In this document: positions 14,841 to 25,876 of the stretch, in pieces
How positions within the stretch are numbered: position 1 is the stretch's first letter
How the letters are laid out: each line of letters begins with the position of its first letter
IMG/VR virus record: IMGVR_UViG_2893967813_000002
Coordinates: 12,653 to 76,652 of that record
DNA from: a virus
Taxonomy: Duplodnaviria; Caudoviricetes
Reading direction: 5' to 3' (one strand)
Length of the DNA: 64,000 nt
Notes under the pieces: generated by a model
Databases searched by the model: none
Told to the model about the DNA's origin: nothing
The model's input: only the letters and a program-made list of their open reading frames with translations
Made by a program: the position numbers and the translations under genes

Positions 14841-15323
14841 CTATTTTAAATTAAACATAGTCCAATCCACACTGTCTTTTTCCCTCCATCCGTCCTGAAC
14901 GGTCTTTATCACATAGGCACACACCGATTGGGAGAACGCAATAAAATCATCTGCATTCTCGAAAGTATGATAGATGGGCGTACCATCTTCCTGTTCGTTG
15001 ATTTTTAGGGTAAGCGGATAAGGGATGTTTTCACTTCGCTCTATGGCGGAAAAGTTCAGTTGGTTCTCGGTAGAAAGGTATATCTGCTTCTTGTTCCAGA
15101 CAAAACCGTTTATAATCTTCTCCTCCGTTGTCTTGTTTATAGCGGACACGACAATCTCTTTGACCTCGGAAAGTGTAGGCTTGCGGTTGAATGTATGCCT
15201 GTATTCCCAACCGCTTTCACTCTTTTCATCGTCTTTCCAAAAGCCAAAAAACAATATCCACTTGGAGCGTCCTGTACGCACAAGACAATCCTGCCGCTGC
15301 TTTGTGCCGTAAATCTTTTCCAT
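14841..15323 (-). CDS. Hypothetical protein (DUF4376-like, tail fibre assembly-like)
   Basis: INGFVWN..IYLSTENQLNF...W..KDSVDW pattern. Confidence 0.5.
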   Translation of the reverse strand: MEKIYGTKQRQDCLVRTGRSKWILFFGFWKDDEKSESGWEYRHTFNRKPTLSEVKEIVVSAINKTTEEKIINGFVWNKKQIYLSTENQLNFSAIERSENIPYPLTLKINEQEDGTPIYHTFENADDFIAFSQSVCAYVIKTVQDGWREKDSVDWTMFNLK

Positions 15324-15345
15324 TTTTGTGAGTTTTGATTTCAGG

Positions 15346-15389
15346 CAAAAATAGCGGAATCCAAGTGGATTAATATGTTATCCTTTTAC
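15346..15389 (-). promoter_or_regulatory. Putative late promoter GTAAAAGGATAA-N24-TATTTTTG for the lysis cassette
   Basis: Plus-strand TTATCCTTTTAC 15378-15389 and CAAAAATA 15346-15353. Confidence 0.7.
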
Positions 15390-15391
15390 CA

Positions 15392-16879
15392 TCAGGTAAA
15401 ATTGTATTTTCTCTTTCCTCCGTCAAATACCTCGCATTTGAGAACCGTTTCAAATGGGAAACCATCTTCAATGTCGCTGATTTGGTCAAGAATGCCTTTC
15501 ATCTCAACAGAAGCTGTAAAGAACTTTCCCCATTCTTGGGTTGTAGGATTGCGGAAAGATACAAGATAACGGTCTTCTCCTTCTTTGGTATCTATACCCG
15601 TTTCAAAATCATGTATCTCAATTGGTATATTTACGATGTCACTCAATCTCATTACTTTTCCGGGAAAGCGTTTCTTTCCGTCAGCAGGAGTATATGTAAC
15701 TCCCATTTCTGAAAATTTCTTCATTTTCTTGTTTGTAAGTATGTAAAACAAATGTTTGCAATCAGCATGGCAAGCCATTCCTTTGAATGAACCTATGATT
15801 TCCTGCCTTCTTTTGCGTGATTTGACTTTGGCAAGATTTCTGGCTGCATTCTGTTTCGTCCGTTTCCTTAGCAAGGAATACTCCCCGAAATTCACATAAC
15901 CCAAAGCATCCATGCCGGATGAAATGGGGGCGACTTTCTCGCTGGGCTTGATGGTCAGTCCAAGTTTGGCACTTTCTTCATGTAGGCAATTCCTTAGTCT
16001 CCACAACTCCTTTTTGCTTTCGCCGAGGATAAAGGTGTCATCACAAAAACGGAAATAATATGACGCACCGTGCTGTTCTATCATCGCATGGTCAAGGTCA
16101 TTTAGATACAGGTTGCCGAAAAACTGGGAGGAACGAAGTCCCTTGCTGATACCGGCATCCGCATCGGGATATAACACTTTGACAAAATTCTCCAATATCG
16201 GCAGCAAAATCGGGTCGGCGATGTATTTCCTGATTTTGTCTATCAATATGCTATGAACGATATGGTCATAGTAGCCTTGATAGTCTGATTGATAGAAGTA
16301 TTTCAGGTTTGGATTTGCTTTCATTGCGGCTTGAATGGCATGAAACAAACCTTGCGGCCCTCTTCCCTTGATGGAAGCTGCAGTTGTCTCTATCAGAATG
16401 GGAGTAAGTTTTTCCTCTATGATTTCCATAATGGCATTACTGCCCATCCTTTCAAAGACAGCAGGGGCTTGGACTGTCCGTATTTTAGGACCGTCTTTCG
16501 TTTCAAAGGATTTTAGCGTGTTGACTCGGAAAATTCCATTTCCTATCTGTTCTTTCATTTTTGCAAGTATGGTATCTCGATTGAGTACATATCGTACTTG
16601 GCGTGCTGTGTACTTCTTTCCATCAATTAAGACAGAGTTCCTTTTTTCTGCTTCGGTAGAGGATTGGCTGAGGTTTGACAGCACACGCTTGAATGACGAC
16701 AATAGGTTTTCTTCCGTTATTATTTCGGGGATGAGGTTGTATAAAGGATAACTGACCGAAGGTGTTCCCCCGGTCAGTCCTATAAAATTGTCCGTATCAT
16801 CATAGACCGCCTTCCGGTCCCGTGAGGAGGATATGAAACCCTCCTCACTTGTGGTTAAAGATATGTTCCGGCTTTCCAT
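15392..16879 (-). CDS. DGR reverse transcriptase with C-terminal extension
   Basis: ASIKGRG, YQSDYQGYY, GISKGLRSSQ (DGR-type GxxxSQ), YFRFCDD, LGY; adjacent TR. Confidence 0.95.
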   Translation of the reverse strand: MESRNISLTTSEEGFISSSRDRKAVYDDTDNFIGLTGGTPSVSYPLYNLIPEIITEENLLSSFKRVLSNLSQSSTEAEKRNSVLIDGKKYTARQVRYVLNRDTILAKMKEQIGNGIFRVNTLKSFETKDGPKIRTVQAPAVFERMGSNAIMEIIEEKLTPILIETTAASIKGRGPQGLFHAIQAAMKANPNLKYFYQSDYQGYYDHIVHSILIDKIRKYIADPILLPILENFVKVLYPDADAGISKGLRSSQFFGNLYLNDLDHAMIEQHGASYYFRFCDDTFILGESKKELWRLRNCLHEESAKLGLTIKPSEKVAPISSGMDALGYVNFGEYSLLRKRTKQNAARNLAKVKSRKRRQEIIGSFKGMACHADCKHLFYILTNKKMKKFSEMGVTYTPADGKKRFPGKVMRLSDIVNIPIEIHDFETGIDTKEGEDRYLVSFRNPTTQEWGKFFTASVEMKGILDQISDIEDGFPFETVLKCEVFDGGKRKYNFT

Positions 16880-16984
16880 AAATAATATATTATAATGCTT
16901 TTGCCGAGGCGCGAACCCCTCGGAGAATATAATTGCCCAACTCGTAGGCGTATAGGGTCTCCGATTAGTTAACCATCAGAATTT

Positions 16985-17094
16985 GAGCCGACCACCGTAG
17001 TTCGTGTTCGAGTTCGAAGATGCGTTGTTCGCGTTCGCATAAGCGAGACCGGAGTTCGCATTCGAGTTGTTGCCAGACCGAAGAACACAGCGGC
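16985..17094 (-). ncRNA. DGR template repeat (TR)
   Basis: 110-bp copy of 17969-18078 with 10 AAY codons; all differences at adenines. Confidence 0.96.
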
Positions 17095-17119
17095 GCGCGG
17101 GGTTGTCTGCCTTTATGTA

Positions 17120-17422
17120 TCAAATGGCGAATTTTCCTAAACCTACTATTTCAAGGTTGATACTCATTCCCATTGCACGAAATACTTTTCTGATTGTCTG
17201 TATGGTAAGATTGCTTCCTTTCTCAATGCGAGAAATCTGCGCTTTCTTAACTCCAATCATTTCGCCAAGCTGTTCCTGAGTGATGTTTCTTGATTCACGG
17301 GCTTGTTTGATTGCCTCACCAATCAAGAACGCATCAACCTTTGCTTCATATTCGTCACGTCTTGGAGTTCCTTTAACCCCAATTACGCTGTCCAGCATTT
17401 CTTCGTGAGTGTAAAGTTTCAT
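17120..17422 (-). CDS. higA: HigA-like XRE HTH antitoxin
   Basis: IKQARESRNITQEQLGEMIGVKKAQISRIEKG; ATGA overlap with the upstream toxin. Confidence 0.85.
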   Translation of the reverse strand: MKLYTHEEMLDSVIGVKGTPRRDEYEAKVDAFLIGEAIKQARESRNITQEQLGEMIGVKKAQISRIEKGSNLTIQTIRKVFRAMGMSINLEIVGLGKFAI

Positions 17423-17763
17423 ATCTTCTGCTTTTTATCGTTAAAATACTGTTTTCTAATATTCTCTGCCTTATCAATTTCTTTTGATGGGGTCTTCTGC
17501 GTTTTCTTTATAAAGCCGTGAGTGGCAATTACCAAAGTGTCCTCTTCTGTATCCCAAAATGCCAAAAGCCGATAACAGATGCCATTGTAAAGCGTTCTGA
17601 ACTCCCAAATATCCGTACCTTCCAATTTCTTAAAAAGTTCTTTGTCTATGACAACTCTACTTTTGAAGATATTATAAGCGATTTTATCTTGTACCTTCTC
17701 CGGCAAAGAATGGATAAATTCATAAGCTTCTTCTGTATAAACTATTTTGAATCTCGTTTCCAT
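17419..17763 (-). CDS. higB: HigB/RelE-family (Gp49-like) toxin
   Basis: KKLEGTDIWEFR...YRLLAF...THGFIKKTQKTP; toxin-first gene order. Confidence 0.85.
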   Translation of the reverse strand: METRFKIVYTEEAYEFIHSLPEKVQDKIAYNIFKSRVVIDKELFKKLEGTDIWEFRTLYNGICYRLLAFWDTEEDTLVIATHGFIKKTQKTPSKEIDKAENIRKQYFNDKKQKI

Positions 17764-17784
17764 TATTAACTTGATTTCCTTTTG

Positions 17785-17818
17785 CAAAGGTAATAAACAG
17801 TTTACATATAAAGAAACT
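17785..17818 (-). promoter_or_regulatory. higBA promoter (-7 TACCTTTG) with candidate operator AGTTT-N10-AAACT
   Basis: CAAAGGTA 17785-17792; inverted repeat 17799-17818; no late-promoter motif. Confidence 0.55.
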
Positions 17819-17876
17819 TTTCGCTGTCTTTTTACATGAATGATTTATAATCGACTCGCTTCGCGAGAATAAAGAA

Positions 17877-17905
17877 AGAGGGAGCAGCCTTACGGCTCTC
17901 CCTCT
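17877..17905 (-). terminator. GC-rich hairpin with GTAA loop after the target gene (terminator and/or DGR target-recognition hairpin)
   Basis: Minus strand AGAGGGAGAGCC-GTAA-GGCTGCTCCCTCT followed by TTCTTTATT. Confidence 0.7.
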
Positions 17906-17935: not shown

Positions 17936-20900
17936 CTATTCTATAATAACGAATTTTCCGCGGAAGGCGAGCCGACCACCGTAGTACGTGCTCGAGTACG
18001 AAGATGCGTAGTTCGCGCTCGCATAAGCGAGACCGGAGCTCGCATTCGAGTTGTAGCCAGACCGAAGAACACAGCGGCCTCTACTACCACTCATCCAGAA
18101 ACCGGCAGCATAATGGGTCACATACATGCTTGTGTCTGTCTTGTGAACTCGACTCGGAAGGACATCACATTTCGCTCCATGTACGATACGCACAACACAA
18201 TTCCCGTTGGATGATTCAACCGTTTTGACTGTGCGCTCCGTTTTTGTAACAGGGTCGTAAATATGAGCGGTGTAATCAATCGGATATGAACTGTCATTCT
18301 CCGTACATTTGGCTTTATAAAAATCTTCATAAGTCGGGACATTGAACGCAATGTAGTCCATCCATTCGGAATCACAGCCTACATAGTGCTTTAATCCCAA
18401 AATGGAGTTAAGGTTGTTCCCTACATTATAGGAATCTCCCATACCAACGTTATCCTGTTTGTTCAGGATAGCGTCATGCACACCGTTGCCGACTACCGAC
18501 TGTTCATTGGTCGTTCCGTTCAACGCCCACCACAAGTTACTGACTTCTTTGTGCTGCTCGTAGTCCTGCAACTGGTAGCCCGGTCCTCTCATGCGGCAGA
18601 TATTCTGAAAGTCCTTGGCAGTGTAGTTCAATGTGCCGATTGGCATTTCAAGCGGATTGCCCTCACTGTCATATTTCCATTCATTTGAGGTTACGGATGT
18701 TCCGTTACCTTTCTTTGAACGTACATCGCCGGATAGGCTTCTCGGCATCTTCAAGCCGTCTATGGTGATTGGATAGACACCGATAAGGCTGTCATTGTCG
18801 CCTACGGTATGCTCTGTCCATTCAGGTTCTATGGCTTCGATGTTGTCACTGTCCACAGTCAGACACTCAATGTCCCCGATGTCACGGAAAGAGGTGAAGT
18901 AAAACCACTTTGCACCGCTTGGCACATCGCAGAAGATGTAATCTCCAATGGAGAAGTCAAAATAAGTGTGGCTGACAGACATGATGAATATGCTTATCGC
19001 TCGGTTGTTCTCGTCCGTGAAGACACCTCCGAGGCGCGCATGATTCAATCCCGGCCATCTTACCTGCTTCATGCCTTTCACATCCATCCTGTAACTGTTG
19101 GTGTTGGATGCGGTGGCTATCACATCCTCGCTCAGAATTTCACCGATAACGGCATCATTCGCATAAACACCGGTATTTTCCCGGTATAGCAGCTCTGACA
19201 GCTTCGCCTTTTTGCTATGCAACGCAGTTGAAAGCGGTTCGGATTCAGTAACGGACGGAATGTAATATTTCGCCTGGTTCTTGTAGTCATTCACTCCCTT
19301 GTACCAATGATGAGGGGCGTGCCAAAATATGTCAAAGCCCTCTCCTGCAGAATCGGACACATCAAAACTGCTTCCATCTTTCAGGTAGTTGAAATCCGTA
19401 TCGCTTACCTGTACGCCTTCCATTTGGTTCTTCTTGGTGTTGTAAGAACATTTATAGGCATGGCATCCTTTCTGTATGGCAAGCATATGTCCGCTCGGAA
19501 TGTAGGTATTCCCATAATCCGCCCCGGTCTTGTTTTCCGGATTGCTGTACCTTTCACAAGAATCACTCTCCACAACATCGCTGATTTTTACGATGGAAAA
19601 TTGAGAGTTGTGAAGTTCAAGTTGGGGAAAATAGGCAGCAAACGCATTTATTTCGTCTGTTTCCACAAGTTCGCTCAATATCCAACGGCCGGTAATACCG
19701 CTACACTGTTCCTTTTCATCATAAGCATTTCCGTTTGCGTCAAGCCCGATTGCGCCGCTTTCCTTAATGGAACGCAACAGTCCGACACTGGCGGTTGCAT
19801 TCACATTGGGAATCCGGACGGTCTTTAGCGCACTCGCATTGACTATCTGTTCCAATAGCGTCATGGCATCTACATACGGACACTCATTGACAAATATCTT
19901 TGTTATCTTGGCTACACCACCGAGCGTCAGTCCGCCGGGATAGGTAAGGTTGGGCAGGTTGTTCAGCACGAGTTCCGTTATTGTTTCCGGAAGCGTAAGT
20001 TTGTCTATCGGCGATGTTTCAGCCAGTGTGATGGCAGAAAGTCCAGTATTGTCGGCATATACGGAAACCAGACGAGGACACTTCGATGCGTTGACGGTCT
20101 GCACTTCTGTGTTGCGCACATCAAGAATGCGCAAGAACGGCATATCACCCAAATCAAGGTTGGTCATATAGCCTGTGTTACCGGGCGACATCGTCCAGTT
20201 ACCATGCGATTCTCCGCCCACATACAATTCCTGCAACAACGACATCTTGGGCAATGTGTTTCCAAATTGGGGGTCGATACTGATTTCACTCAAATCAAGC
20301 ATACTCATGCGGTCTGCCTGATAGATGTATAGCATAATGTTTTCTCCGTGTTGAAAGTTTGTGAAAACACCTTCTTCTCCGGCTTTCAGGTAAATGCCTT
20401 CCGTGATATTTCCGCTGTCATTACCAATGCCAAAATATCCGCTCTTTGCTGCCTTGAAACGGATGACGGCACCTTCTTTTGCACCGATACGTCCACCGAT
20501 ATAACCACTCTCCGCCTTGAAGTCGCCGCAGCGGTAGTAGCCGTCACGGATGCGCCAACGTTGTTCAATAAATGCCGGTAGTGAGGTTAGACCCAAGCCT
20601 TGCAGGGCATAGAAATAAAGGTCGCTGTACCCTGTATATTTAATATACTTGCGTTCTCCGTCATAGCTTGATACCACTTTCTGCCATTTCTTCAAGCGTT
20701 CTGTCACGAAATAGTGCATAGCCCCTTTAGGTGAGAAAGGACCCGCGCCTATACCGAGCGTGTCAGGCAGGGAGCGCATGGTGTCGGCTATGGCCGACAA
20801 GGTAATGGTATTGCCGTTTTGGTCAACTTCCATAGTCTGCTGTCCTCTTATATCGTTCCACAGCACAGAACCTCGTCCTGCGTATGCACTGTTTGTCAAA

Positions 20901-23900
20901 TCGCCGGGGTCAACTTCCGGGTCAATGGTCTGCCCTCCGTCATTGTCCTTTCCGTTGCAGGTGTCGCAGTCATATACCTTGTTGCAGTACATCCGTCTTG
21001 CCTCCATACCGTTTACACCGCTATATATACCGTCTTTCACGCTGCATCCGTCCTCCAAGAAGAACATGGGCTGCATATTCTTCGCCTGTTGGTCAACGGC
21101 GGCAAGGTAGTCGGTAAACAGGTAGTACGATACCAACGAATAAGGACTGATGTATTTCCACATCTTCGTCTTCCATATCTCCTGCCATTTTCCTGCAAGT
21201 TCTTCCTTGGCATAGTCGCAGCTGTCGCAGAATTTCAGCACCTGATACAGGTCGAACGGCACTTTCCGTCCCATGGCCAGGTCTATCTGCAACTGCTCAT
21301 CGTCAATCATACACTCGAAGTAACGTGTCCACATCGGGTAGGTTTCCTGTCCAAGTTTCAGTTTGGTAACCCAAGAGGCCTCGGCGGTGGTCGGCTCCAT
21401 CATGTCGGCAACACTTCCCACTCCCTGCCACCAGTTCATGGCATCATAGGTCAGAAGTTCGTAACCGCTCACGGGGTTAAGTACTTTCCCGGTAATCTGC
21501 CATTTGCCACCAACCTGTTTCATTTCTCCGGTTTGTGCAGTCCATTCACCTCTCTCATATGCCATAAAGCGATAATCCTGTCCGCAATACAATGATAAAA
21601 GATATAGTTTATCCTTATTTGTTGTTCCATCATTCTTGAAACGAGTTTCTATCTGGTCAAGATTCTCTCCTTCTTTACCGAAGTATTCTACAAAGTCTCC
21701 ATAATTGATGCAACCTTTATTGTATCCGGGAGTATCTTTAAAACCAAGCGCAACCTGTTCTCCTTTGTCTTCTTTCCAGTTTCCTTTGGCGTGAAACCAT
21801 GCATCGGTAAGGCTTTCTTGTGTCGCACGGAATGCGGCAATGGGATGATTGGCTGTCGAATGGTTCATCTGCAATCCTTTCAACGAGACATCGCTTTTGG
21901 TCCAAGTGCCGTCAAATGCACGCTGTGCCGGAGTAAGGTAATCACTGCCAAGAGCACGGAAAGTGGCATTCATCAGGTCGCATACACCGCAGTCGTTTGC
22001 CCCGGAACTGTCAGAATAGTCCACCTTTACTGTGATAATCTTCACAGGAATAGTATTTTCTCCTACACGCACATAGCCTATTTTCATAAGTTCGTATGAA
22101 ATTCGGGCATCTTCGTTGTCATAGTCCGGGTAGATAGGTGTAACTTCCCAACCTTCATTTTTCTGAAGATAGAAGCGGTCGTTCTTGATAGGTCGCTTTG
22201 CCGATGTTGTTCCCTGTCTTCTCCATTGTACATTGATTGCCTTGAAACTTCTCCATGGTCGTTTCGGGTCGTAGTAGAATAGTGTACATTTGAATTTCTT
22301 GCTCGTATCTATGTCACCGTCAAATGTGTCAAAGGTCTGCTGGTCTGCCACCACCACATAATAAGGCATTCCCTTGGCAGAAAGGGCTTCTATGGTGGGG
22401 CGGTTTTGCGTGTCAAGCACGTTCTCTTTCTCGTATTCCACAACCATGGCAGTGGTGTCTGTCAGTTTGCACAAGTAGTTTTGGAACGCCTGTGCCCATT
22501 CATAATGACTCTCGTAGGCAAGCATATAGTACAGGTATAGGTCTCCTTCCGTACCGTTGAACGTAACGGTTCTGTTGTTAAGGATTGCACCACTGTCACT
22601 GATATAACCGATACAGCCCACTTCTTCTCCGTTCAAATACAACTTCATGCAGGAGTAATTGCTTCCACCCCGTGATACATAAATGGTGGACGGTTCGACA
22701 ACTACTGCCATCGTGATTTTCTCGCCAGAGCGAAAGCTGCGCTCAACTAAGGCAGGCTGTCCTGTTTTACAGTAGATAGCAGCTTTGTTGCCGCATACAT
22801 AGAAACCTGCACCGCTATCAGGGTCATAACACTCTATGAGTTTTGAATCTGCTTCCTTGATGTTCTTGGTGGCAAATGCGAATTGGACGGCACAACCTGT
22901 AGTCCGTTCGGTGGCAGAGTTCCCGAAAGGGTAGTAATCCAATATCTCCGCTTTCACATTCTCTGCTATGCGAAGGCATCGTTCGCCCAAGTAGTCCACG
23001 AATCCGTTGCTTGACCAGTTTGCGCCCCTTACATCCATAGTTATGCCGTTGTTTTCTATGGTATGGTCGCTCTCGCTGTTGCTGCGCGCGGAAAAATCAT
23101 ATCCGAACAAAGCTCCGTCCTTGATGGCCATGTCAATGGCACTCCCTTTTACAATTACCTTGATTTCATTGGTGGACACATTTCCGCTCTTGGCATGTAC
23201 GGTAATGCTCTGGCTTCCGTCCGTGCTGTATCCGCTTATCTGCTTGTTCACGGTAAGCGTTTCGGCAATCATGGCTTCCACGGATGTCACTTTCTCATCG
23301 TCATAGAAGACATCCACGTGCGTTTCCGTTTTACCCGATGTGTATGCTGCGACCTCTATGGTAAGGTTATCATACAGGCGGAGCGTACCGTTGTTGGTGT
23401 CGTTGAACCGGATTGCCACGATAGGAGTGGTGTCCTCGGCATCAATACACATGATAGCAGAGTAAATGGTATTGCCCCTTACTCCTGATTTGTTTTCCGT
23501 TCCGTAAATGCGTACCGGGTATGCCCCATGTGTCATCCGTTCGCCGCCGCCGAATACATTACTCGGATTGATGGATATGCTCTTGGTGTAACTGTCATTG
23601 ACTGTTGCCTCTCCCAGTTTCTTCCATTCCCCGTTGTAGAGCATTTCCACTGTGGCACGTATGGATGAGGTGTTGTTTGGGAATTTGTAGAACTGTCCTA
23701 TATTTTTTGCTGTGCCTCCTACGGTCAATGCGGTGCTGCTTGTGTAGTTGAGCGGCATAGGCTGTTCAACTGTAATATCCACAGCAACAATGGTAATGGC
23801 TTTCTTCTTGGTGTTCCCGTCCGCATCGGTAGCCTGAACAAAGAAACTCTTGGATGCGGCACTGCTGAAGTACTCAGTAAAGTCAAGTTCAAACTTGTAG

Positions 23901-25876
23901 TCCGTTGCACTTGCTGAGCCGGTTTCGTTCATTGCCTCGCTATACAGGGTAAGTCCTGTGCTTGCATCAATGATTGAAACATTACGGATAACGCCAAGCA
24001 CTTCGTTACCGTCCGGGTAACTGACACTACGCAAAGCTACATTAATTTTTATCTCGGAACCGAACGCCACAATGGGGGCGGCTTCCTCAAAGTAGATGGA
24101 CAGGGTGCTGTCCTCGCTCGAACCTCCGCCTCCTCCATTTTTCGGAATCTTAAGTACTACATCTTCTATCTGTCCCCCGTTCAGGTTCACGGCTTTGTAG
24201 TAGATATATTCCTCATCGCTTTCTTCGTCAAATCCTCCGATTGATTTTTCCTGCATGGCGTATGCGCCTCCTGTGGAAAGGGCATCTTTCCCTCCTTCTT
24301 CCGGTTTATCGGATGTTTCCACGTTGCTTCCTCCGCCACCGAATGCTACCCATGGTTTCAAGTCCTCCGGTGTTATGTCGCTCGCTTCACGTGTAAATTG
24401 GTAGGTGAGCCACACGGGTGCACCGTTCTTGTCGCTTTCTGCAGTCTTGAACGTAAGGATGATACCGCTTTTAAGATAAACTTCCCCATTCTCCTTTTCA
24501 AAGTCTGACACGGCTTTGATGGCTGTTGACAAAGTGTATTCCACATTTCCGCACAGAGCATTTACATTGATTATATCGCCTATGCCCTTGCCACCACCTG
24601 CTCCGAAATCGCTCCAGTTGTTTTCTTTAAACCAGTCCGATGTATCAGTCCATTGTTTGGAAACCCATCCGGATTCCGTCAGGAAGGTCAATACAACACC
24701 TGGTATTTTCAATACCGGGGAATATTCGGGGGCGGAACACCGGTCAAGGGCAACGGAGAATGTTATCTCCCTGTCCGCAAGGTCAAACAGTTGGTTGACA
24801 TTCACAATGCTACGCGCCACGATTTGCTTGTTTTGCGAAAGTATGGTTTTCCTGTTTTCTTCCACCTGCTTGATGTCTTCCTGTAACTTCGCACCTTCAT
24901 CGCCGGGAAATGCCGTTGAACTTGTATGTCCGAGAGCGAGGTCTGAACCGATGACGGTCAGTTGCGTGCCGCTCCAACGGTAACTCTTTCCATCCTCTTT
25001 GCAGAGGAAAACTTTTCCTGAATAAGGAATCCGCCCATTCATGCTTACCGAACCGAAATTGTCGGCATCCAGCCAGTTGTTGTAATAGGTGGGGGCAGAA
25101 ACGGTTTCCCCTGTATTGGGAGCATACGAGATGACAAAGCAACCGTTGGTCTTGTCATAAACGACATTGCATCCCTCATCGGTGGAACTCTTGTCAAGGC
25201 TTGCCGTTTGGGTGGTAATACCGGTAACGATTTCCTGAAACTCAACCGCATCATCCACGTATGCGGGCAGGTGTCGGCTCGGTATCTTGCCCAGTTCGTC
25301 CAAAGGGGCAAGCCCGCCGTTTTCCCCCTTTGAGTTCTTGAATGTATTCAGCTGACCGCTGACTTCATTGGCTTTGTCACTTGCTTTTTTTGCTGTGTCT
25401 TTGACAGTATTGACTTGTCCTTGCAGTGAGTTGACGCTGTTTCCGAGAGTGGTCAGTTGTGTATCCTGTGCCTTGTCTTTTCCCTCAATGTCGGTCACAT
25501 CGTCTTGCAACTTGGTAATATCCTCCTGCAATTTTTCAATGGCTTCGTTATACTCTCCGCTGTCAATGGTCGGATTGCCGCCGCTATGCCCGGTCGGCAC
25601 CCATTCTCCGCCGTCGGCGACATATATCGGTGCAGGAAGAGAAGTTCCGACAAGTGCCCACCAGCCGTCATGCGGAAAAGGATAAGCTGCTTTTAACTTT
25701 TCAATGGTAGTGTACAGACCTTTTCCTGCTCCTTTGATATTTTTGGCTTCAAGCCAACCATCTACGACAACATTTCCTTTCAGATGGGTTTTCCCTTGGA
25801 CAGTGGCATCGCCTCCTATTGCCGTATTGCGACCTACTGATACATCACCATCTATATGCTTTGATTCGTAACTCAT
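17936..25876 (-). CDS. DGR target: 2646-aa tail adhesin/receptor-binding protein with C-terminal CLec-type VR
   Basis: VR in the last ~50 aa (RCVLRSG...GGRLAF); coiled coil, LamG-like, CotH-like and LRR segments recognised by motif. Confidence 0.88.
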   Translation of the reverse strand: MSYESKHIDGDVSVGRNTAIGGDATVQGKTHLKGNVVVDGWLEAKNIKGAGKGLYTTIEKLKAAYPFPHDGWWALVGTSLPAPIYVADGGEWVPTGHSGGNPTIDSGEYNEAIEKLQEDITKLQDDVTDIEGKDKAQDTQLTTLGNSVNSLQGQVNTVKDTAKKASDKANEVSGQLNTFKNSKGENGGLAPLDELGKIPSRHLPAYVDDAVEFQEIVTGITTQTASLDKSSTDEGCNVVYDKTNGCFVISYAPNTGETVSAPTYYNNWLDADNFGSVSMNGRIPYSGKVFLCKEDGKSYRWSGTQLTVIGSDLALGHTSSTAFPGDEGAKLQEDIKQVEENRKTILSQNKQIVARSIVNVNQLFDLADREITFSVALDRCSAPEYSPVLKIPGVVLTFLTESGWVSKQWTDTSDWFKENNWSDFGAGGGKGIGDIINVNALCGNVEYTLSTAIKAVSDFEKENGEVYLKSGIILTFKTAESDKNGAPVWLTYQFTREASDITPEDLKPWVAFGGGGSNVETSDKPEEGGKDALSTGGAYAMQEKSIGGFDEESDEEYIYYKAVNLNGGQIEDVVLKIPKNGGGGGSSEDSTLSIYFEEAAPIVAFGSEIKINVALRSVSYPDGNEVLGVIRNVSIIDASTGLTLYSEAMNETGSASATDYKFELDFTEYFSSAASKSFFVQATDADGNTKKKAITIVAVDITVEQPMPLNYTSSTALTVGGTAKNIGQFYKFPNNTSSIRATVEMLYNGEWKKLGEATVNDSYTKSISINPSNVFGGGERMTHGAYPVRIYGTENKSGVRGNTIYSAIMCIDAEDTTPIVAIRFNDTNNGTLRLYDNLTIEVAAYTSGKTETHVDVFYDDEKVTSVEAMIAETLTVNKQISGYSTDGSQSITVHAKSGNVSTNEIKVIVKGSAIDMAIKDGALFGYDFSARSNSESDHTIENNGITMDVRGANWSSNGFVDYLGERCLRIAENVKAEILDYYPFGNSATERTTGCAVQFAFATKNIKEADSKLIECYDPDSGAGFYVCGNKAAIYCKTGQPALVERSFRSGEKITMAVVVEPSTIYVSRGGSNYSCMKLYLNGEEVGCIGYISDSGAILNNRTVTFNGTEGDLYLYYMLAYESHYEWAQAFQNYLCKLTDTTAMVVEYEKENVLDTQNRPTIEALSAKGMPYYVVVADQQTFDTFDGDIDTSKKFKCTLFYYDPKRPWRSFKAINVQWRRQGTTSAKRPIKNDRFYLQKNEGWEVTPIYPDYDNEDARISYELMKIGYVRVGENTIPVKIITVKVDYSDSSGANDCGVCDLMNATFRALGSDYLTPAQRAFDGTWTKSDVSLKGLQMNHSTANHPIAAFRATQESLTDAWFHAKGNWKEDKGEQVALGFKDTPGYNKGCINYGDFVEYFGKEGENLDQIETRFKNDGTTNKDKLYLLSLYCGQDYRFMAYERGEWTAQTGEMKQVGGKWQITGKVLNPVSGYELLTYDAMNWWQGVGSVADMMEPTTAEASWVTKLKLGQETYPMWTRYFECMIDDEQLQIDLAMGRKVPFDLYQVLKFCDSCDYAKEELAGKWQEIWKTKMWKYISPYSLVSYYLFTDYLAAVDQQAKNMQPMFFLEDGCSVKDGIYSGVNGMEARRMYCNKVYDCDTCNGKDNDGGQTIDPEVDPGDLTNSAYAGRGSVLWNDIRGQQTMEVDQNGNTITLSAIADTMRSLPDTLGIGAGPFSPKGAMHYFVTERLKKWQKVVSSYDGERKYIKYTGYSDLYFYALQGLGLTSLPAFIEQRWRIRDGYYRCGDFKAESGYIGGRIGAKEGAVIRFKAAKSGYFGIGNDSGNITEGIYLKAGEEGVFTNFQHGENIMLYIYQADRMSMLDLSEISIDPQFGNTLPKMSLLQELYVGGESHGNWTMSPGNTGYMTNLDLGDMPFLRILDVRNTEVQTVNASKCPRLVSVYADNTGLSAITLAETSPIDKLTLPETITELVLNNLPNLTYPGGLTLGGVAKITKIFVNECPYVDAMTLLEQIVNASALKTVRIPNVNATASVGLLRSIKESGAIGLDANGNAYDEKEQCSGITGRWILSELVETDEINAFAAYFPQLELHNSQFSIVKISDVVESDSCERYSNPENKTGADYGNTYIPSGHMLAIQKGCHAYKCSYNTKKNQMEGVQVSDTDFNYLKDGSSFDVSDSAGEGFDIFWHAPHHWYKGVNDYKNQAKYYIPSVTESEPLSTALHSKKAKLSELLYRENTGVYANDAVIGEILSEDVIATASNTNSYRMDVKGMKQVRWPGLNHARLGGVFTDENNRAISIFIMSVSHTYFDFSIGDYIFCDVPSGAKWFYFTSFRDIGDIECLTVDSDNIEAIEPEWTEHTVGDNDSLIGVYPITIDGLKMPRSLSGDVRSKKGNGTSVTSNEWKYDSEGNPLEMPIGTLNYTAKDFQNICRMRGPGYQLQDYEQHKEVSNLWWALNGTTNEQSVVGNGVHDAILNKQDNVGMGDSYNVGNNLNSILGLKHYVGCDSEWMDYIAFNVPTYEDFYKAKCTENDSSYPIDYTAHIYDPVTKTERTVKTVESSNGNCVVRIVHGAKCDVLPSRVHKTDTSMYVTHYAAGFWMSGSRGRCVLRSGYNSNASSGLAYASANYASSYSSTYYGGRLAFRGKFVIIE
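17969..18078 (-). repeat. DGR variable repeat (VR)
   Basis: 103/110 identical to TR; the 7 mismatches are all TR-adenine positions. Confidence 0.96.

What the first reader, a model, noticed from the sequence alone, without database searches (positions are those of the whole stretch)
17095..17818. HigBA toxin-antitoxin operon sits in the avd slot and appears to drive TR+RT transcription
Seen: order is target gene, hairpin/terminator (17877-17905), promoter with palindromic operator, higB, higA, 25 nt, TR, spacer, RT, all on one strand, with no terminator visible between higA and TR and no avd anywhere nearby. Known: HigA antitoxins autorepress their operon, and in BPP-1 the DGR RNA starts in the upstream avd gene. 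Inference: DGR RNA and RT would be under TA control, so receptor hypermutation could be switched on by stress or antitoxin loss, independently of the late regulon and possibly in the lysogen. The TA may also enforce DGR retention, or the RelE-fold RNase may process the DGR RNA. This is the best candidate for an undescribed system.
Basis: partly seen in the sequence, partly recalled or inferred. Interest (0 to 1): 0.88.

Follow-up and report, generated by a model that had tools for sequence, protein, structure and literature searches.

The report
Toxin-antitoxin cassette heading a phage retroelement
An ordinary, swappable toxin-antitoxin gene pair has replaced the promoter of a gut Bacteroides phage's receptor-hypermutation cassette, so the hypermutation RNA and enzyme are probably made from the toxin-antitoxin promoter, although related phages hypermutate just as well without the pair.

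Summary
On the minus strand the order is: 2646-aa target gene with VR, conserved terminator hairpin, imperfect palindrome, Bacteroides -7 box, higB (Gp49/RelE-fold), higA (Xre-HTH), 25 nt, TR, spacer, RT. No Avd is present in the 76.6-kb phage record.

This RT belongs to the Hankyphage-type Bacteroidales DGR lineage, which has no avd. In 61 TA-less relatives the VR-TR gap is 94-260 nt, and 46 of them carry a single consensus promoter box 23-48 nt upstream of TR. In 54 TA-bearing relatives that promoter is gone. The only consensus box there precedes higB, and no terminator follows before TR. Co-transcription of TR and RT from the higBA promoter is therefore well supported by comparison, but it has not been shown by RNA data.

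The pair is not a DGR component. Three divergent alleles swap independently of the RT, TA-less forms nest among TA-bearing ones, and VR mismatches fall at TR adenines equally with and without it.

The arrangement is very common in gut assemblies and annotated in GenBank (BS-TP4) without comment. Earlier notes of this scan record TA pairs inside Patescibacteria DGRs, likewise judged passengers.

The parts
17936..25876 (-). DGR target gene (2646 aa), C-terminal variable tip
   Evidence: ORF; orthologues annotated in BS-TP4 and BKO1-TP3
17969..18078 (-). Variable repeat (VR)
   Evidence: 110-nt direct repeat of TR; 7 mismatches, all at TR adenines
17877..17905 (-). GC-rich hairpin with T-rich tail: terminator of the target gene, possibly also a DGR target-site hairpin
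   Evidence: Sequence; conserved in position with compensatory stem changes across clades
17855..17867 (-). Second small hairpin CTCGCGAAGCGAG followed by TCGA; left boundary of the exchangeable segment
   Evidence: Conserved in TA-bearing and TA-less loci; scored terminator-like in L021
17799..17818 (-). Imperfect palindrome AGTTTCTTTATATGTAAACT, candidate HigA operator over the -33 region
   Evidence: Identical in L088; allele-specific palindromes at the same position in alleles B and C and in the chromosomal homologue
17785..17792 (-). Bacteroides-type -7 promoter box TACCTTTG; predicted transcription start near 17780
   Evidence: Only exact TAnnTTTG on this strand between 17800 and 15353; present before higB in all 54 TA-bearing loci
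17419..17763 (-). higB, RelE/ParE-fold toxin (Gp49 family), 114 aa
   Evidence: PF05973 E 2.5e-17; PDB 6AF3_A HigB; dN/dS 0.06 against L088
17120..17422 (-). higA, Xre-type HTH antitoxin, 100 aa; start overlaps the higB stop (ATGA)
   Evidence: HTH_3 E 5e-15; PDB 6AF3_B HigA; dN/dS 0.01 against L088
17138..17145 (-). Near-consensus -7 box TAGGTTTA inside higA, 51 nt upstream of TR: candidate internal promoter (rival reading)
   Evidence: 7 of 8 here, 8 of 8 in L088, absent from alleles B and C
17095..17119 (-). Junction between higA and TR; holds the conserved element AAAGGCAGACAACCCC; right boundary of the exchangeable segment
   Evidence: Shared by TA-bearing and TA-less loci of all clades
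16985..17094 (-). Template repeat (TR)
16880..16984 (-). TR-RT spacer with conserved hairpin CCGAGG...CCTCGG
   Evidence: Sequence
15392..16879 (-). DGR reverse transcriptase, 495 aa, Hankyphage-type
   Evidence: RVT_1; 40% identity to the Hankyphage p00 RT
14841..15323 (-). Conserved post-RT gene (160 aa, DUF4376-like); not Avd-like
   Evidence: Homologous to the Hankyphage post-RT ORF, E 2e-17; present in all clades; alpha/beta model with pLDDT 93 and no PDB fold match

Best explanation
The pair is a functional HigBA-type (Gp49 toxin, Xre antitoxin) type II toxin-antitoxin cassette. It arrived with its own operator and promoter in the short VR-TR gap of an Avd-less, Hankyphage-type DGR in a widespread group of temperate Bacteroides phages (BS-TP4-like). 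It replaced the DGR's native promoter, which in TA-less relatives sits 23-48 nt upstream of TR.

As a result, TR, the spacer and the RT gene now form the 3' part of the higBA transcription unit. DGR RNA and RT are most likely made by read-through from the HigA-regulated promoter.

The cassette is accessory cargo. It is exchanged by recombination between conserved flanks: the small hairpin plus TCGA on the left, and the element AAAGGCRGAYAAYCCC on the right. It is not needed for adenine mutagenesis and does not stand in for Avd. Its primary role is probably the usual one for prophage TA modules (maintenance, or exclusion of other phages). The coupling to the DGR is a by-product that may or may not be used.

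Shown: the anatomy, the family assignments, the replacement of the promoter, the patchy and exchangeable distribution, purifying selection, and VR diversification with and without the cassette.

Inferred: co-transcription, HigA autorepression, and any effect on hypermutation rate.
For: TA identity:
- PF05973 and HTH_3 are both above their cut-offs.
- Both proteins match the two chains of the solved HigBA complex 6AF3.
- Toxin-first order with an ATGA overlap.
- dN/dS is 0.01-0.12 within allele lineages.
- A 77%-identical toxin, with its antitoxin, lies among housekeeping genes in a 3.1-Mb chromosome contig.

Promoter replacement:
- 61 TA-less loci have gaps of 94-260 nt. Of these, 46 have exactly one TAnnTTTG, 23-48 nt upstream of TR, and no other box in the gap.
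- 54 TA-bearing loci have gaps of 831-947 nt, with the box(es) just upstream of higB. Only one of them (L088) has an exact box next to TR.
- Direct comparison of L044 and L042 shows homology resuming at the element GGCAGAAAATCCC.

No terminator-like site on the coding strand between the higB start and TR in three alleles.

Allele-specific palindromes abut the -7 box in every allele.

Accessory status:
- The RT tree needs at least 6 changes of TA state.
- TA-less loci nest within the allele-C clade at branch lengths of about 0.002.
- L141 has a remote RT (50% identity) but an allele-C-like TA.
- L088 has a B-clade RT with an allele-A TA.
- L112 and L131 have 99% identical RTs but only 67% identical HigB.

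DGR diversification in both forms:
- Mismatches at TR adenines are 498 of 520 in TA-bearing loci and 717 of 743 in TA-less loci.
- Every near-identical genome carries a different VR.

Avd-less lineage:
- No PF05635 match in the record.
- Hankyphage has the same VR-gap-TR-RT-DUF4376 layout.
- Avd-less Architecture A and Lineage 3 are described in PMC5758913.

Weak hint of co-transcription: in two wastewater libraries labelled RNA-Seq (one study), single contigs bridge higB-higA-TR-RT and end at 17753 and 17764. That is within about 30 nt of the predicted start.
Against: - No strand-specific RNA evidence exists. The contigs may be DNA, come from one study, and cannot show a 5' end.
- The window's allele has a 7-of-8 -7-like box inside higA at the distance typical of the native promoter, and it is exact in L088. 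An internal promoter is therefore not excluded for this allele.
- Real Bacteroides promoters can deviate from consensus: 15 TA-less loci lack an exact box.
- Read-through from the target gene past the hairpins is not excluded.
- Repeated occupation of exactly this slot by at least three divergent alleles, under strong purifying selection and in a very abundant phage group, could mean the coupling is selected rather than incidental.
Confidence: 0.65

Rival explanations
1. Adaptive coupling. The TA cassette is retained in this slot because HigA or HigBA autorepression gates DGR expression. Antitoxin loss (stress, induction, superinfection) would derepress the operon and raise TR RNA and RT. Receptor hypermutation would then be switched on conditionally, including in the lysogen.
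For: - The anatomy is the same as for the best explanation.
- The slot was occupied repeatedly by divergent alleles and in a remote RT clade.
- Both genes are under strong purifying selection.
- One allele-B toxin variant is indexed in more than 17,000 blocks of the assembly collection. All 24 contigs read there, including chromosome contigs over 1 Mb, show the same arrangement.
- DGR activity in Bacteroides is known to track avd-TR-rt transcript levels (bioRxiv 10.1101/2024.11.15.621889).
Against: - TA-less forms with near-identical RTs exist and are equally diversified.
- Most of the RT lineage never had the cassette.
- There are no expression or mutation-rate data.
- TA pairs also sit inside unrelated Patescibacteria DGRs according to earlier notes of this scan, where they were judged passengers.
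Confidence: 0.2
2. Independent units. TR-RT has its own promoter inside the 3' end of higA (TAGGTTTA, 17145-17138) or another non-consensus start. The TA cassette is then a self-contained moron with no influence on the DGR.
For: - The box matches 7 of 8 positions here and 8 of 8 in L088. It lies 51-52 nt upstream of TR, similar to the 23-48 nt of native promoters.
- 15 TA-less loci work without an exact consensus box.
Against: - Alleles B and C and their variants have no box with 7 or more of 8 matches in the last 130 nt before TR.
- There is no TTTG -33 element at the expected spacing in the window.
- There is no terminator after higA that would insulate the two units.
- Contigs from RNA-labelled libraries run from the higB start through the RT (weak).
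Confidence: 0.15
3. Mechanistic accessory. HigB (a basic RelE-fold RNase) or HigA replaces Avd, or processes the DGR RNA, and is part of the retrohoming machinery.
For: - In position the pair sits like avd in BPP-1 (target-avd-TR-RT).
- Both proteins are basic (pI 8.6 and 9.3).
- No Avd is present.
Against: - The cassette is absent from 61 of 115 resolved relatives, which diversify their VRs equally.
- Alleles as low as 25-38% identical occupy the slot next to 68%-identical RTs. That is not the pattern of a co-evolving partner.
- The window's HigB is 77% identical to the toxin of a chromosomal pair with no DGR nearby.
- HigB-type toxins cleave mRNA on the ribosome (established knowledge), and TR is not known to be translated.
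Confidence: 0.03
4. Guard against collapse. Because the cassette lies between the 110-nt direct repeats VR and TR, recombination between them deletes it. In a lysogen that would trigger post-segregational killing, purging prophages whose DGR has collapsed. This reading does not exclude the others.
For: - VR/TR fusions that remove everything in between do occur: BKO1-TP3, L007, L038 and L080.
- The Gp49-Xre family includes plasmid and prophage addiction modules (established knowledge: N15 gp49/gp48 and Tad-Ata).
Against: - Fusions are found at similar frequency in TA-bearing clades (4 loci) and TA-less clades (3 loci: L064, L115, L116).
- The fusions may be assembly artefacts.
- Killing cannot act during lytic growth.
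Confidence: 0.07

Closest known systems
Hankyphage (Bacteroides phage p00) DGR and the Avd-less Bacteroidales DGRs (Architecture A1, Lineage 3/3A of Wu et al. 2018, PMC5758913)
   Same: The RT is 40% identical over residues 49-495. The order is target-VR-short gap-TR-RT-DUF4376-like gene. The target is a giant C-terminally variable protein. There is no Pfam Avd. Hankyphage has a -7 box 35 nt upstream of its TR.
   Different: The Hankyphage gap is 260 nt and holds no TA. Here a 0.7-kb higBA cassette with its own operator-promoter fills the gap. Assignment to Wu's numbered lineage was not tested.
Bordetella phage BPP-1 DGR (mtd-avd-TR-brt)
   Same: A translated gene lies upstream of TR on the same strand and presumably on the same RNA. 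Mutagenesis is adenine-specific. A GC-rich hairpin lies downstream of VR (PMC3240598).
   Different: The upstream genes are a TA pair, not the essential Avd. They are dispensable in relatives. The hairpin lies about 64 nt beyond VR, and its loop length varies among relatives, unlike the 4-34 bp distance and GRNA loops reported for BPP-1-like elements.
HigBA / Gp49-Xre type II toxin-antitoxin modules (S. pneumoniae HigBA, PDB 6AF3; Bacteroidales chromosomal RelE/ParE-family pairs)
   Same: Toxin-first overlapping genes, a Gp49 domain, an Xre HTH antitoxin and a palindrome at the promoter. The toxin is 77% identical to that of a chromosomal pair.
   Different: There is no terminator of its own. 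The operon continues into a retroelement's template and RT.
Bacteroides phage BS-TP4 (PQ571277.1; Gut Microbes 2025, PMC12694917)
   Same: The same phage group and the same arrangement. The genes are annotated 'Addiction module toxin RelE' and 'transcriptional regulator' between the target and the RT. The phage is temperate and encodes an integrase and a repressor.
   Different: The TA allele differs (HigB 63%, HigA 55% identical). The paper's main text does not mention a toxin at all (0 occurrences), so the coupling has not been discussed.
TA pairs inside Patescibacteria DGRs
   Same: A TA cassette lodged inside a working DGR and judged a lineage-specific passenger.
   Different: The TA family (HicAB), the position (between TR and RT) and the hosts all differ. 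Those claims were not re-tested here.

Membership tests
Type II toxin-antitoxin, HigBA / Gp49-Xre kind | Toxin with a RelE/ParE-superfamily (Gp49/HigB) domain | tested here: met
   PF05973 scores 63.1 bits against a cut-off of 23.9. PDB 6AF3_A HigB, E 7.8e-4. Thousands of homologues are named RelE/ParE family toxin.
Type II toxin-antitoxin, HigBA / Gp49-Xre kind | Adjacent small antitoxin with an Xre-type HTH, toxin gene first, coupled or overlapping ORFs | tested here: met
   HTH_3 scores 55.7 bits. 6AF3_B HigA, E 3.4e-4. ATGA overlap at 17422-17419.
Type II toxin-antitoxin, HigBA / Gp49-Xre kind | Palindromic operator at its own promoter (autoregulation) | tested here: inconclusive
   Allele-specific palindromes abut the -7 box in all alleles. 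The window's copy is imperfect, with 7 of 10 pairs. Binding was not testable.
Type II toxin-antitoxin, HigBA / Gp49-Xre kind | Toxicity of the toxin and its neutralisation by the antitoxin | not testable with these tools
   Only indirect evidence: dN/dS of 0.01-0.12 for both genes.
Diversity-generating retroelement | RT next to a TR/VR pair whose differences lie at TR adenines | tested here: met
   7 of 7 mismatches here. 498 of 520 and 717 of 743 across relatives.
Diversity-generating retroelement | VR at the 3' end of a target gene, followed by a GC-rich inverted repeat | tested here: met
   The distance and loop do not fit the BPP-1-type consensus.
Canonical avd-containing DGR (Architecture B) | Avd gene (PF05635, basic four-helix bundle) in the cassette | tested here: not met
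   No PF05635 match at E<=1 in the 76.6-kb record. The only conserved small neighbour is acidic (pI 5.8), alpha/beta, and has no PDB fold match at E<=0.001.
DGR accessory gene (core component of this DGR lineage) | Conserved with the RT across the lineage and co-diverging with it | tested here: not met
   The TA is absent from 61 of 115 resolved loci. At least 6 state changes are needed on the RT tree. Alleles are discordant with the RT.

The most novel reading that the evidence does not exclude
In a very abundant group of temperate Bacteroides phages, receptor hypermutation has been placed under toxin-antitoxin control. The HigA-repressed promoter is the only promoter for the DGR RNA and RT. 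Antitoxin depletion (stress, induction, superinfection) would then switch diversification on, also in the lysogen. In addition, the cassette's position between the VR and TR direct repeats would penalise recombinational loss of the DGR. Recurrent capture of divergent TA alleles at exactly this slot would then reflect selection for the coupling.
Probability: 0.2. Interest if true: 0.8.

Novelty: new variant of a known kind. Interest (0 to 1): 0.5.

Why it matters
How DGRs are regulated is largely unknown. Work on Bacteroides DGRs shows that activity follows avd-TR-rt transcript levels but names no regulator.

Here nature offers matched pairs of near-identical phages. In one form the DGR sits behind its own promoter. 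In the other it sits behind a TA operator-promoter. Cultured lysogens and isolates are available: BS-TP4 in B. salyersiae, and prophages in Phocaeicola massiliensis DSM 17679 and B. congonensis. This makes the question of whether a TA module gates hypermutation directly testable.

It also cautions annotators. Genes sandwiched in a DGR cassette, even at the position avd occupies in BPP-1, need not be DGR components.

Tried and rejected
- Sigma-70 promoter scan. It does not apply to Bacteroides. I used the TAnnTTTG consensus instead.
- Read laying. All four runs are contigs. X9 (metatranscriptome) and X1 are covered along the whole stretch and look like DNA. In X6 and X7 the target gene has little or no cover.
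- Tyrosine integrase PF00589 in the window's own record: no match. Relatives are nevertheless integrated in chromosomes, and BS-TP4 has an annotated integrase.
- Literature searches for a TA inside a DGR found no description. The term 'RelE' matched unrelated words.
- NCBIfam gave nothing above its cut-offs.
- A Foldseek search of the post-RT ORF against the PDB found no significant match.
- Comparison of VR/TR fusion frequency between TA-bearing and TA-less clades showed no difference, and the fusions may be assembly artefacts.
- The count of VR mismatches was considered as a proxy for DGR rate. I rejected it because it reflects the last retrohoming event and selection, not frequency.
- No complex prediction was run. 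HigB-HigA is a textbook pair, and this report does not claim that either protein binds the RT.

Full report
**Anatomy**

All features lie on the minus strand.
- The 2646-aa target ORF (25876..17936) ends in a 110-nt VR (18078-17969). VR differs from the TR (17094-16985) at seven positions, all TR adenines.
- After the stop codon comes a GC-rich hairpin (17905-17877) with a T-rich tail, then a small hairpin CTCGCGAAGCGAG followed by TCGA (17867-17855).
- Next come an imperfect palindrome (17818-17799) and an exact Bacteroides -7 box TACCTTTG (17792-17785). This is the only exact TAnnTTTG on this strand between 17800 and 15353.
- higB starts at ATG 17763, because the TTG at 17787 overlaps the -7 box. 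It encodes a 114-aa Gp49/RelE-fold protein (PF05973, E 2.5e-17).
- higA (17422..17120) overlaps higB by ATGA and encodes an Xre HTH protein (HTH_3, E 5e-15).
- The two proteins match chains A and B of the solved HigBA complex 6AF3. For the toxin this is the only match in the PDB sequence search.
- Twenty-five nucleotides later the TR begins, followed by a 105-nt spacer and the 495-aa RT (16879..15392).
- No terminator-like site lies on the coding strand between the higB start and TR, here or in two other alleles. One weak 5-bp stem lies in the TR-RT spacer.

**No avd, but also no 'avd slot'**

- PF05635 finds nothing in the complete 76.6-kb virus record.
- The RT is 40% identical to the Hankyphage p00 RT. 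Hankyphage's annotated DGR has the same layout: VR, 260 nt, TR, RT, then a 161-aa ORF.
- That ORF is homologous to window ORF 14841..15323 (E 2e-17), and an equivalent ORF follows the RT in every clade examined.
- The window ORF is acidic (pI 5.8). It folds with high confidence (pLDDT 93) into an alpha/beta domain with no PDB match at E<=0.001. It is not Avd-like.
- Wu et al. 2018 (PMC5758913) already describe accessory-less DGRs (Architecture A, 29% of DGRs) and an Avd-less Lineage 3, whose branch 3A is confined to Bacteroides and relatives.
- The absence of avd is thus a known property of such DGRs, not a vacancy filled by the TA.

**Survey of relatives**

- I fetched 80 IMG/VR loci and 58 loci from species-representative genomes with the RT. 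I added the GenBank phages BS-TP4, BKO1-TP3 and Hankyphage p00, and one B. acidifaciens contig (L088).
- In 115 loci a VR/TR pair could be resolved.
- Sixty-one loci have no TA. Their VR-TR gap is 94-260 nt. In 46 of these the gap contains exactly one TAnnTTTG, always 23-48 nt upstream of TR. The other 15 are mostly distant clades and have no exact match.
- The motif occurs about once per 2.4 kb per strand in the window. Its presence at this position is far beyond chance, although the loci are related.
- Fifty-four loci carry a higBA pair. Their gap is 831-947 nt, and the box or boxes lie just upstream of higB, 656-803 nt from TR. Only one locus (L088) has an exact box near TR.
- Direct comparison of a TA-less and a TA-bearing locus with near-identical RTs (L044 and L042) shows common sequence up to the small hairpin and again from GGCAGAAAATCCC, 20 nt before TR. 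Between these points there is either a promoter alone or a palindrome, promoter, higB and higA.
- The TA cassette has thus taken the place of the DGR's own promoter.

**Operators**

- In every allele a palindrome with a TATA-rich centre ends a few nucleotides before the -7 box, and its arms differ by allele:
  - allele B, AAAACGTTC/GAACATTTT
  - allele C, AAAAGTTG/CAACTTTT
  - the chromosomal homologue, ACTTTCCTAT/ATAGGAAAGT
  - the window, AGTTT...AAACT, imperfect but identical in L088 although its flanks differ
- This fits antitoxin-specific operators over the -33 region. Binding remains untested.

**The cassette is exchangeable cargo**

- On an RT tree rooted on Hankyphage, most clades lack the TA. 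It occurs in one derived clade and in one remote branch (L141). At least six changes of state are needed.
- TA-less loci nest inside the allele-C clade at branch lengths of about 0.002.
- Pairwise identities are discordant:

| Comparison | RT identity | TA identity |
|---|---|---|
| L088 vs allele B | 86-87% | carries allele A instead (HigB 91%, HigA 96% to the window) |
| L112 vs L131 | 99% | HigB 67% |
| L141 vs all others | 50% | allele-C-like, 78% |
| Window vs allele B | 74% | HigB 64%, HigA 56% |
| Window vs allele C | 68% | HigB 38%, HigA 25% |

- The window's HigB is 77% identical to the toxin of a Gp49-HTH pair lying between a DUF5686 gene and sufCD in a 3.1-Mb chromosome contig with no DGR nearby.
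- Both genes are under strong purifying selection within allele lineages (dN/dS 0.01-0.12), so both proteins are in use.

**The DGR works with and without the cassette**

- Mismatches fall at TR adenines in 498 of 520 cases (TA-bearing) and 717 of 743 cases (TA-less).
- Among near-identical genomes every VR is different. In eight allele-B loci the 110 nt upstream of VR are invariant, while 25 of the 30 variable VR columns are TR-adenine positions.
- The TA is therefore neither required for mutagenic retrohoming nor does it silence it.

**Prevalence and lifestyle**

- One allele-B toxin variant is indexed in more than 17,000 blocks of the assembly collection. All 24 contigs read there, including Bacteroides chromosome contigs over 1 Mb, show target-HigB-HigA-RT. 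The allele-C variant looked up shows the same.
- BS-TP4 was isolated as a temperate phage found in 31% of 930 viromes (PMC12694917). It encodes an integrase and a CI-like repressor.
- Its GenBank record annotates the pair as 'Addiction module toxin RelE' and 'transcriptional regulator'. The paper's main text never mentions a toxin.
- I found no paper that discusses a TA in a DGR leader.
- Earlier notes of this scan record TA pairs inside Patescibacteria DGRs, judged passengers. I did not re-test them.

**Transcription evidence**

- Only assembled contigs could be laid.
- In two wastewater libraries labelled RNA-Seq (one study), single contigs bridge higB-higA-TR-RT (15007-17753 and 16266-17764). 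They end within about 30 nt of the start predicted from the -7 box (near 17780).
- The other two runs are covered along the whole stretch and look like DNA.
- This is a weak hint at best.
- A rival specific to this allele remains: TAGGTTTA inside higA (17145-17138), 51 nt upstream of TR. It is exact in L088 and absent from alleles B and C.

**Verdict**

- This is a real and well-conserved arrangement, but not a new system.
- A standard HigBA-type cassette replaced the promoter of an Avd-less Hankyphage-type DGR. It very probably heads the TR-RT transcript.
- It is a patchy, recombining passenger. Whether the coupling has been put to use (TA-gated hypermutation, or protection against VR-TR collapse) is open.
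- VR/TR fusions that delete the cassette occur in TA-bearing clades (4 loci) about as often as fusions in TA-less clades (3 loci).

Noticed in passing
L002:5990-6135 (BKO1-TP3); also L007, L038, L080, L064, L115, L116: The target gene reads straight into a single VR/TR hybrid repeat followed by the TR 3' flank. Everything between VR and TR is missing. This is either recombinational collapse of the DGR or repeat collapse in assembly. It is seen in both TA-bearing and TA-less clades.
   Followed up: partly
window 15392-15724 (RT residues ~386-495): The C-terminal ~110 residues beyond the RT core are the most conserved part of the protein across eight clade representatives, with many invariant columns. 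The segment is acidic (pI 5.2). It may be a built-in accessory domain of this Avd-less lineage.
   Followed up: partly
window 14841-15323 (-): A 160-aa acidic ORF (phrog_19239, DUF4376-like) follows the RT in every clade, Hankyphage included. The AF2 model has pLDDT 93 and is alpha/beta, with no PDB fold match. It is a conserved DGR-linked gene of unknown role and is not Avd-like.
   Followed up: partly
window 17855-17867 and 17095-17119: Two short conserved elements bound the exchangeable promoter/TA segment in all clades. One is a small hairpin CTCGCG(T)AAGCGAG followed by TCGA. The other is AAAGGCRGAYAAYCCC directly 5' of TR. Their function is unknown (recombination flanks, or part of the DGR RNA).
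   Followed up: no
L042:4124-4138, L141, L112, L131: In allele C the -7 box ends 4 nt before the higB ATG. That higB mRNA is therefore probably leaderless.
   Followed up: no
L112 vs L131: The RTs are 99% identical, but HigB is only 67% and HigA 88% identical. This indicates recent replacement within the TA cassette, mostly of the toxin.
   Followed up: no
L112, L131, L132, L143, L153: Contigs with this Bacteroidales-type phage DGR sit in genome bins named Eggerthellaceae, Sphaerochaetaceae, Anaerovoracaceae, Eubacteriales and Oscillibacter. They are probably mis-binned phage contigs.
   Followed up: no
window 17593-17631: In three runs, contigs share only 33-39 nt of higB here and then continue into unrelated sequence (the same loose end in X6, X7 and X9). 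A higB relative therefore sits in another genomic context.
   Followed up: no
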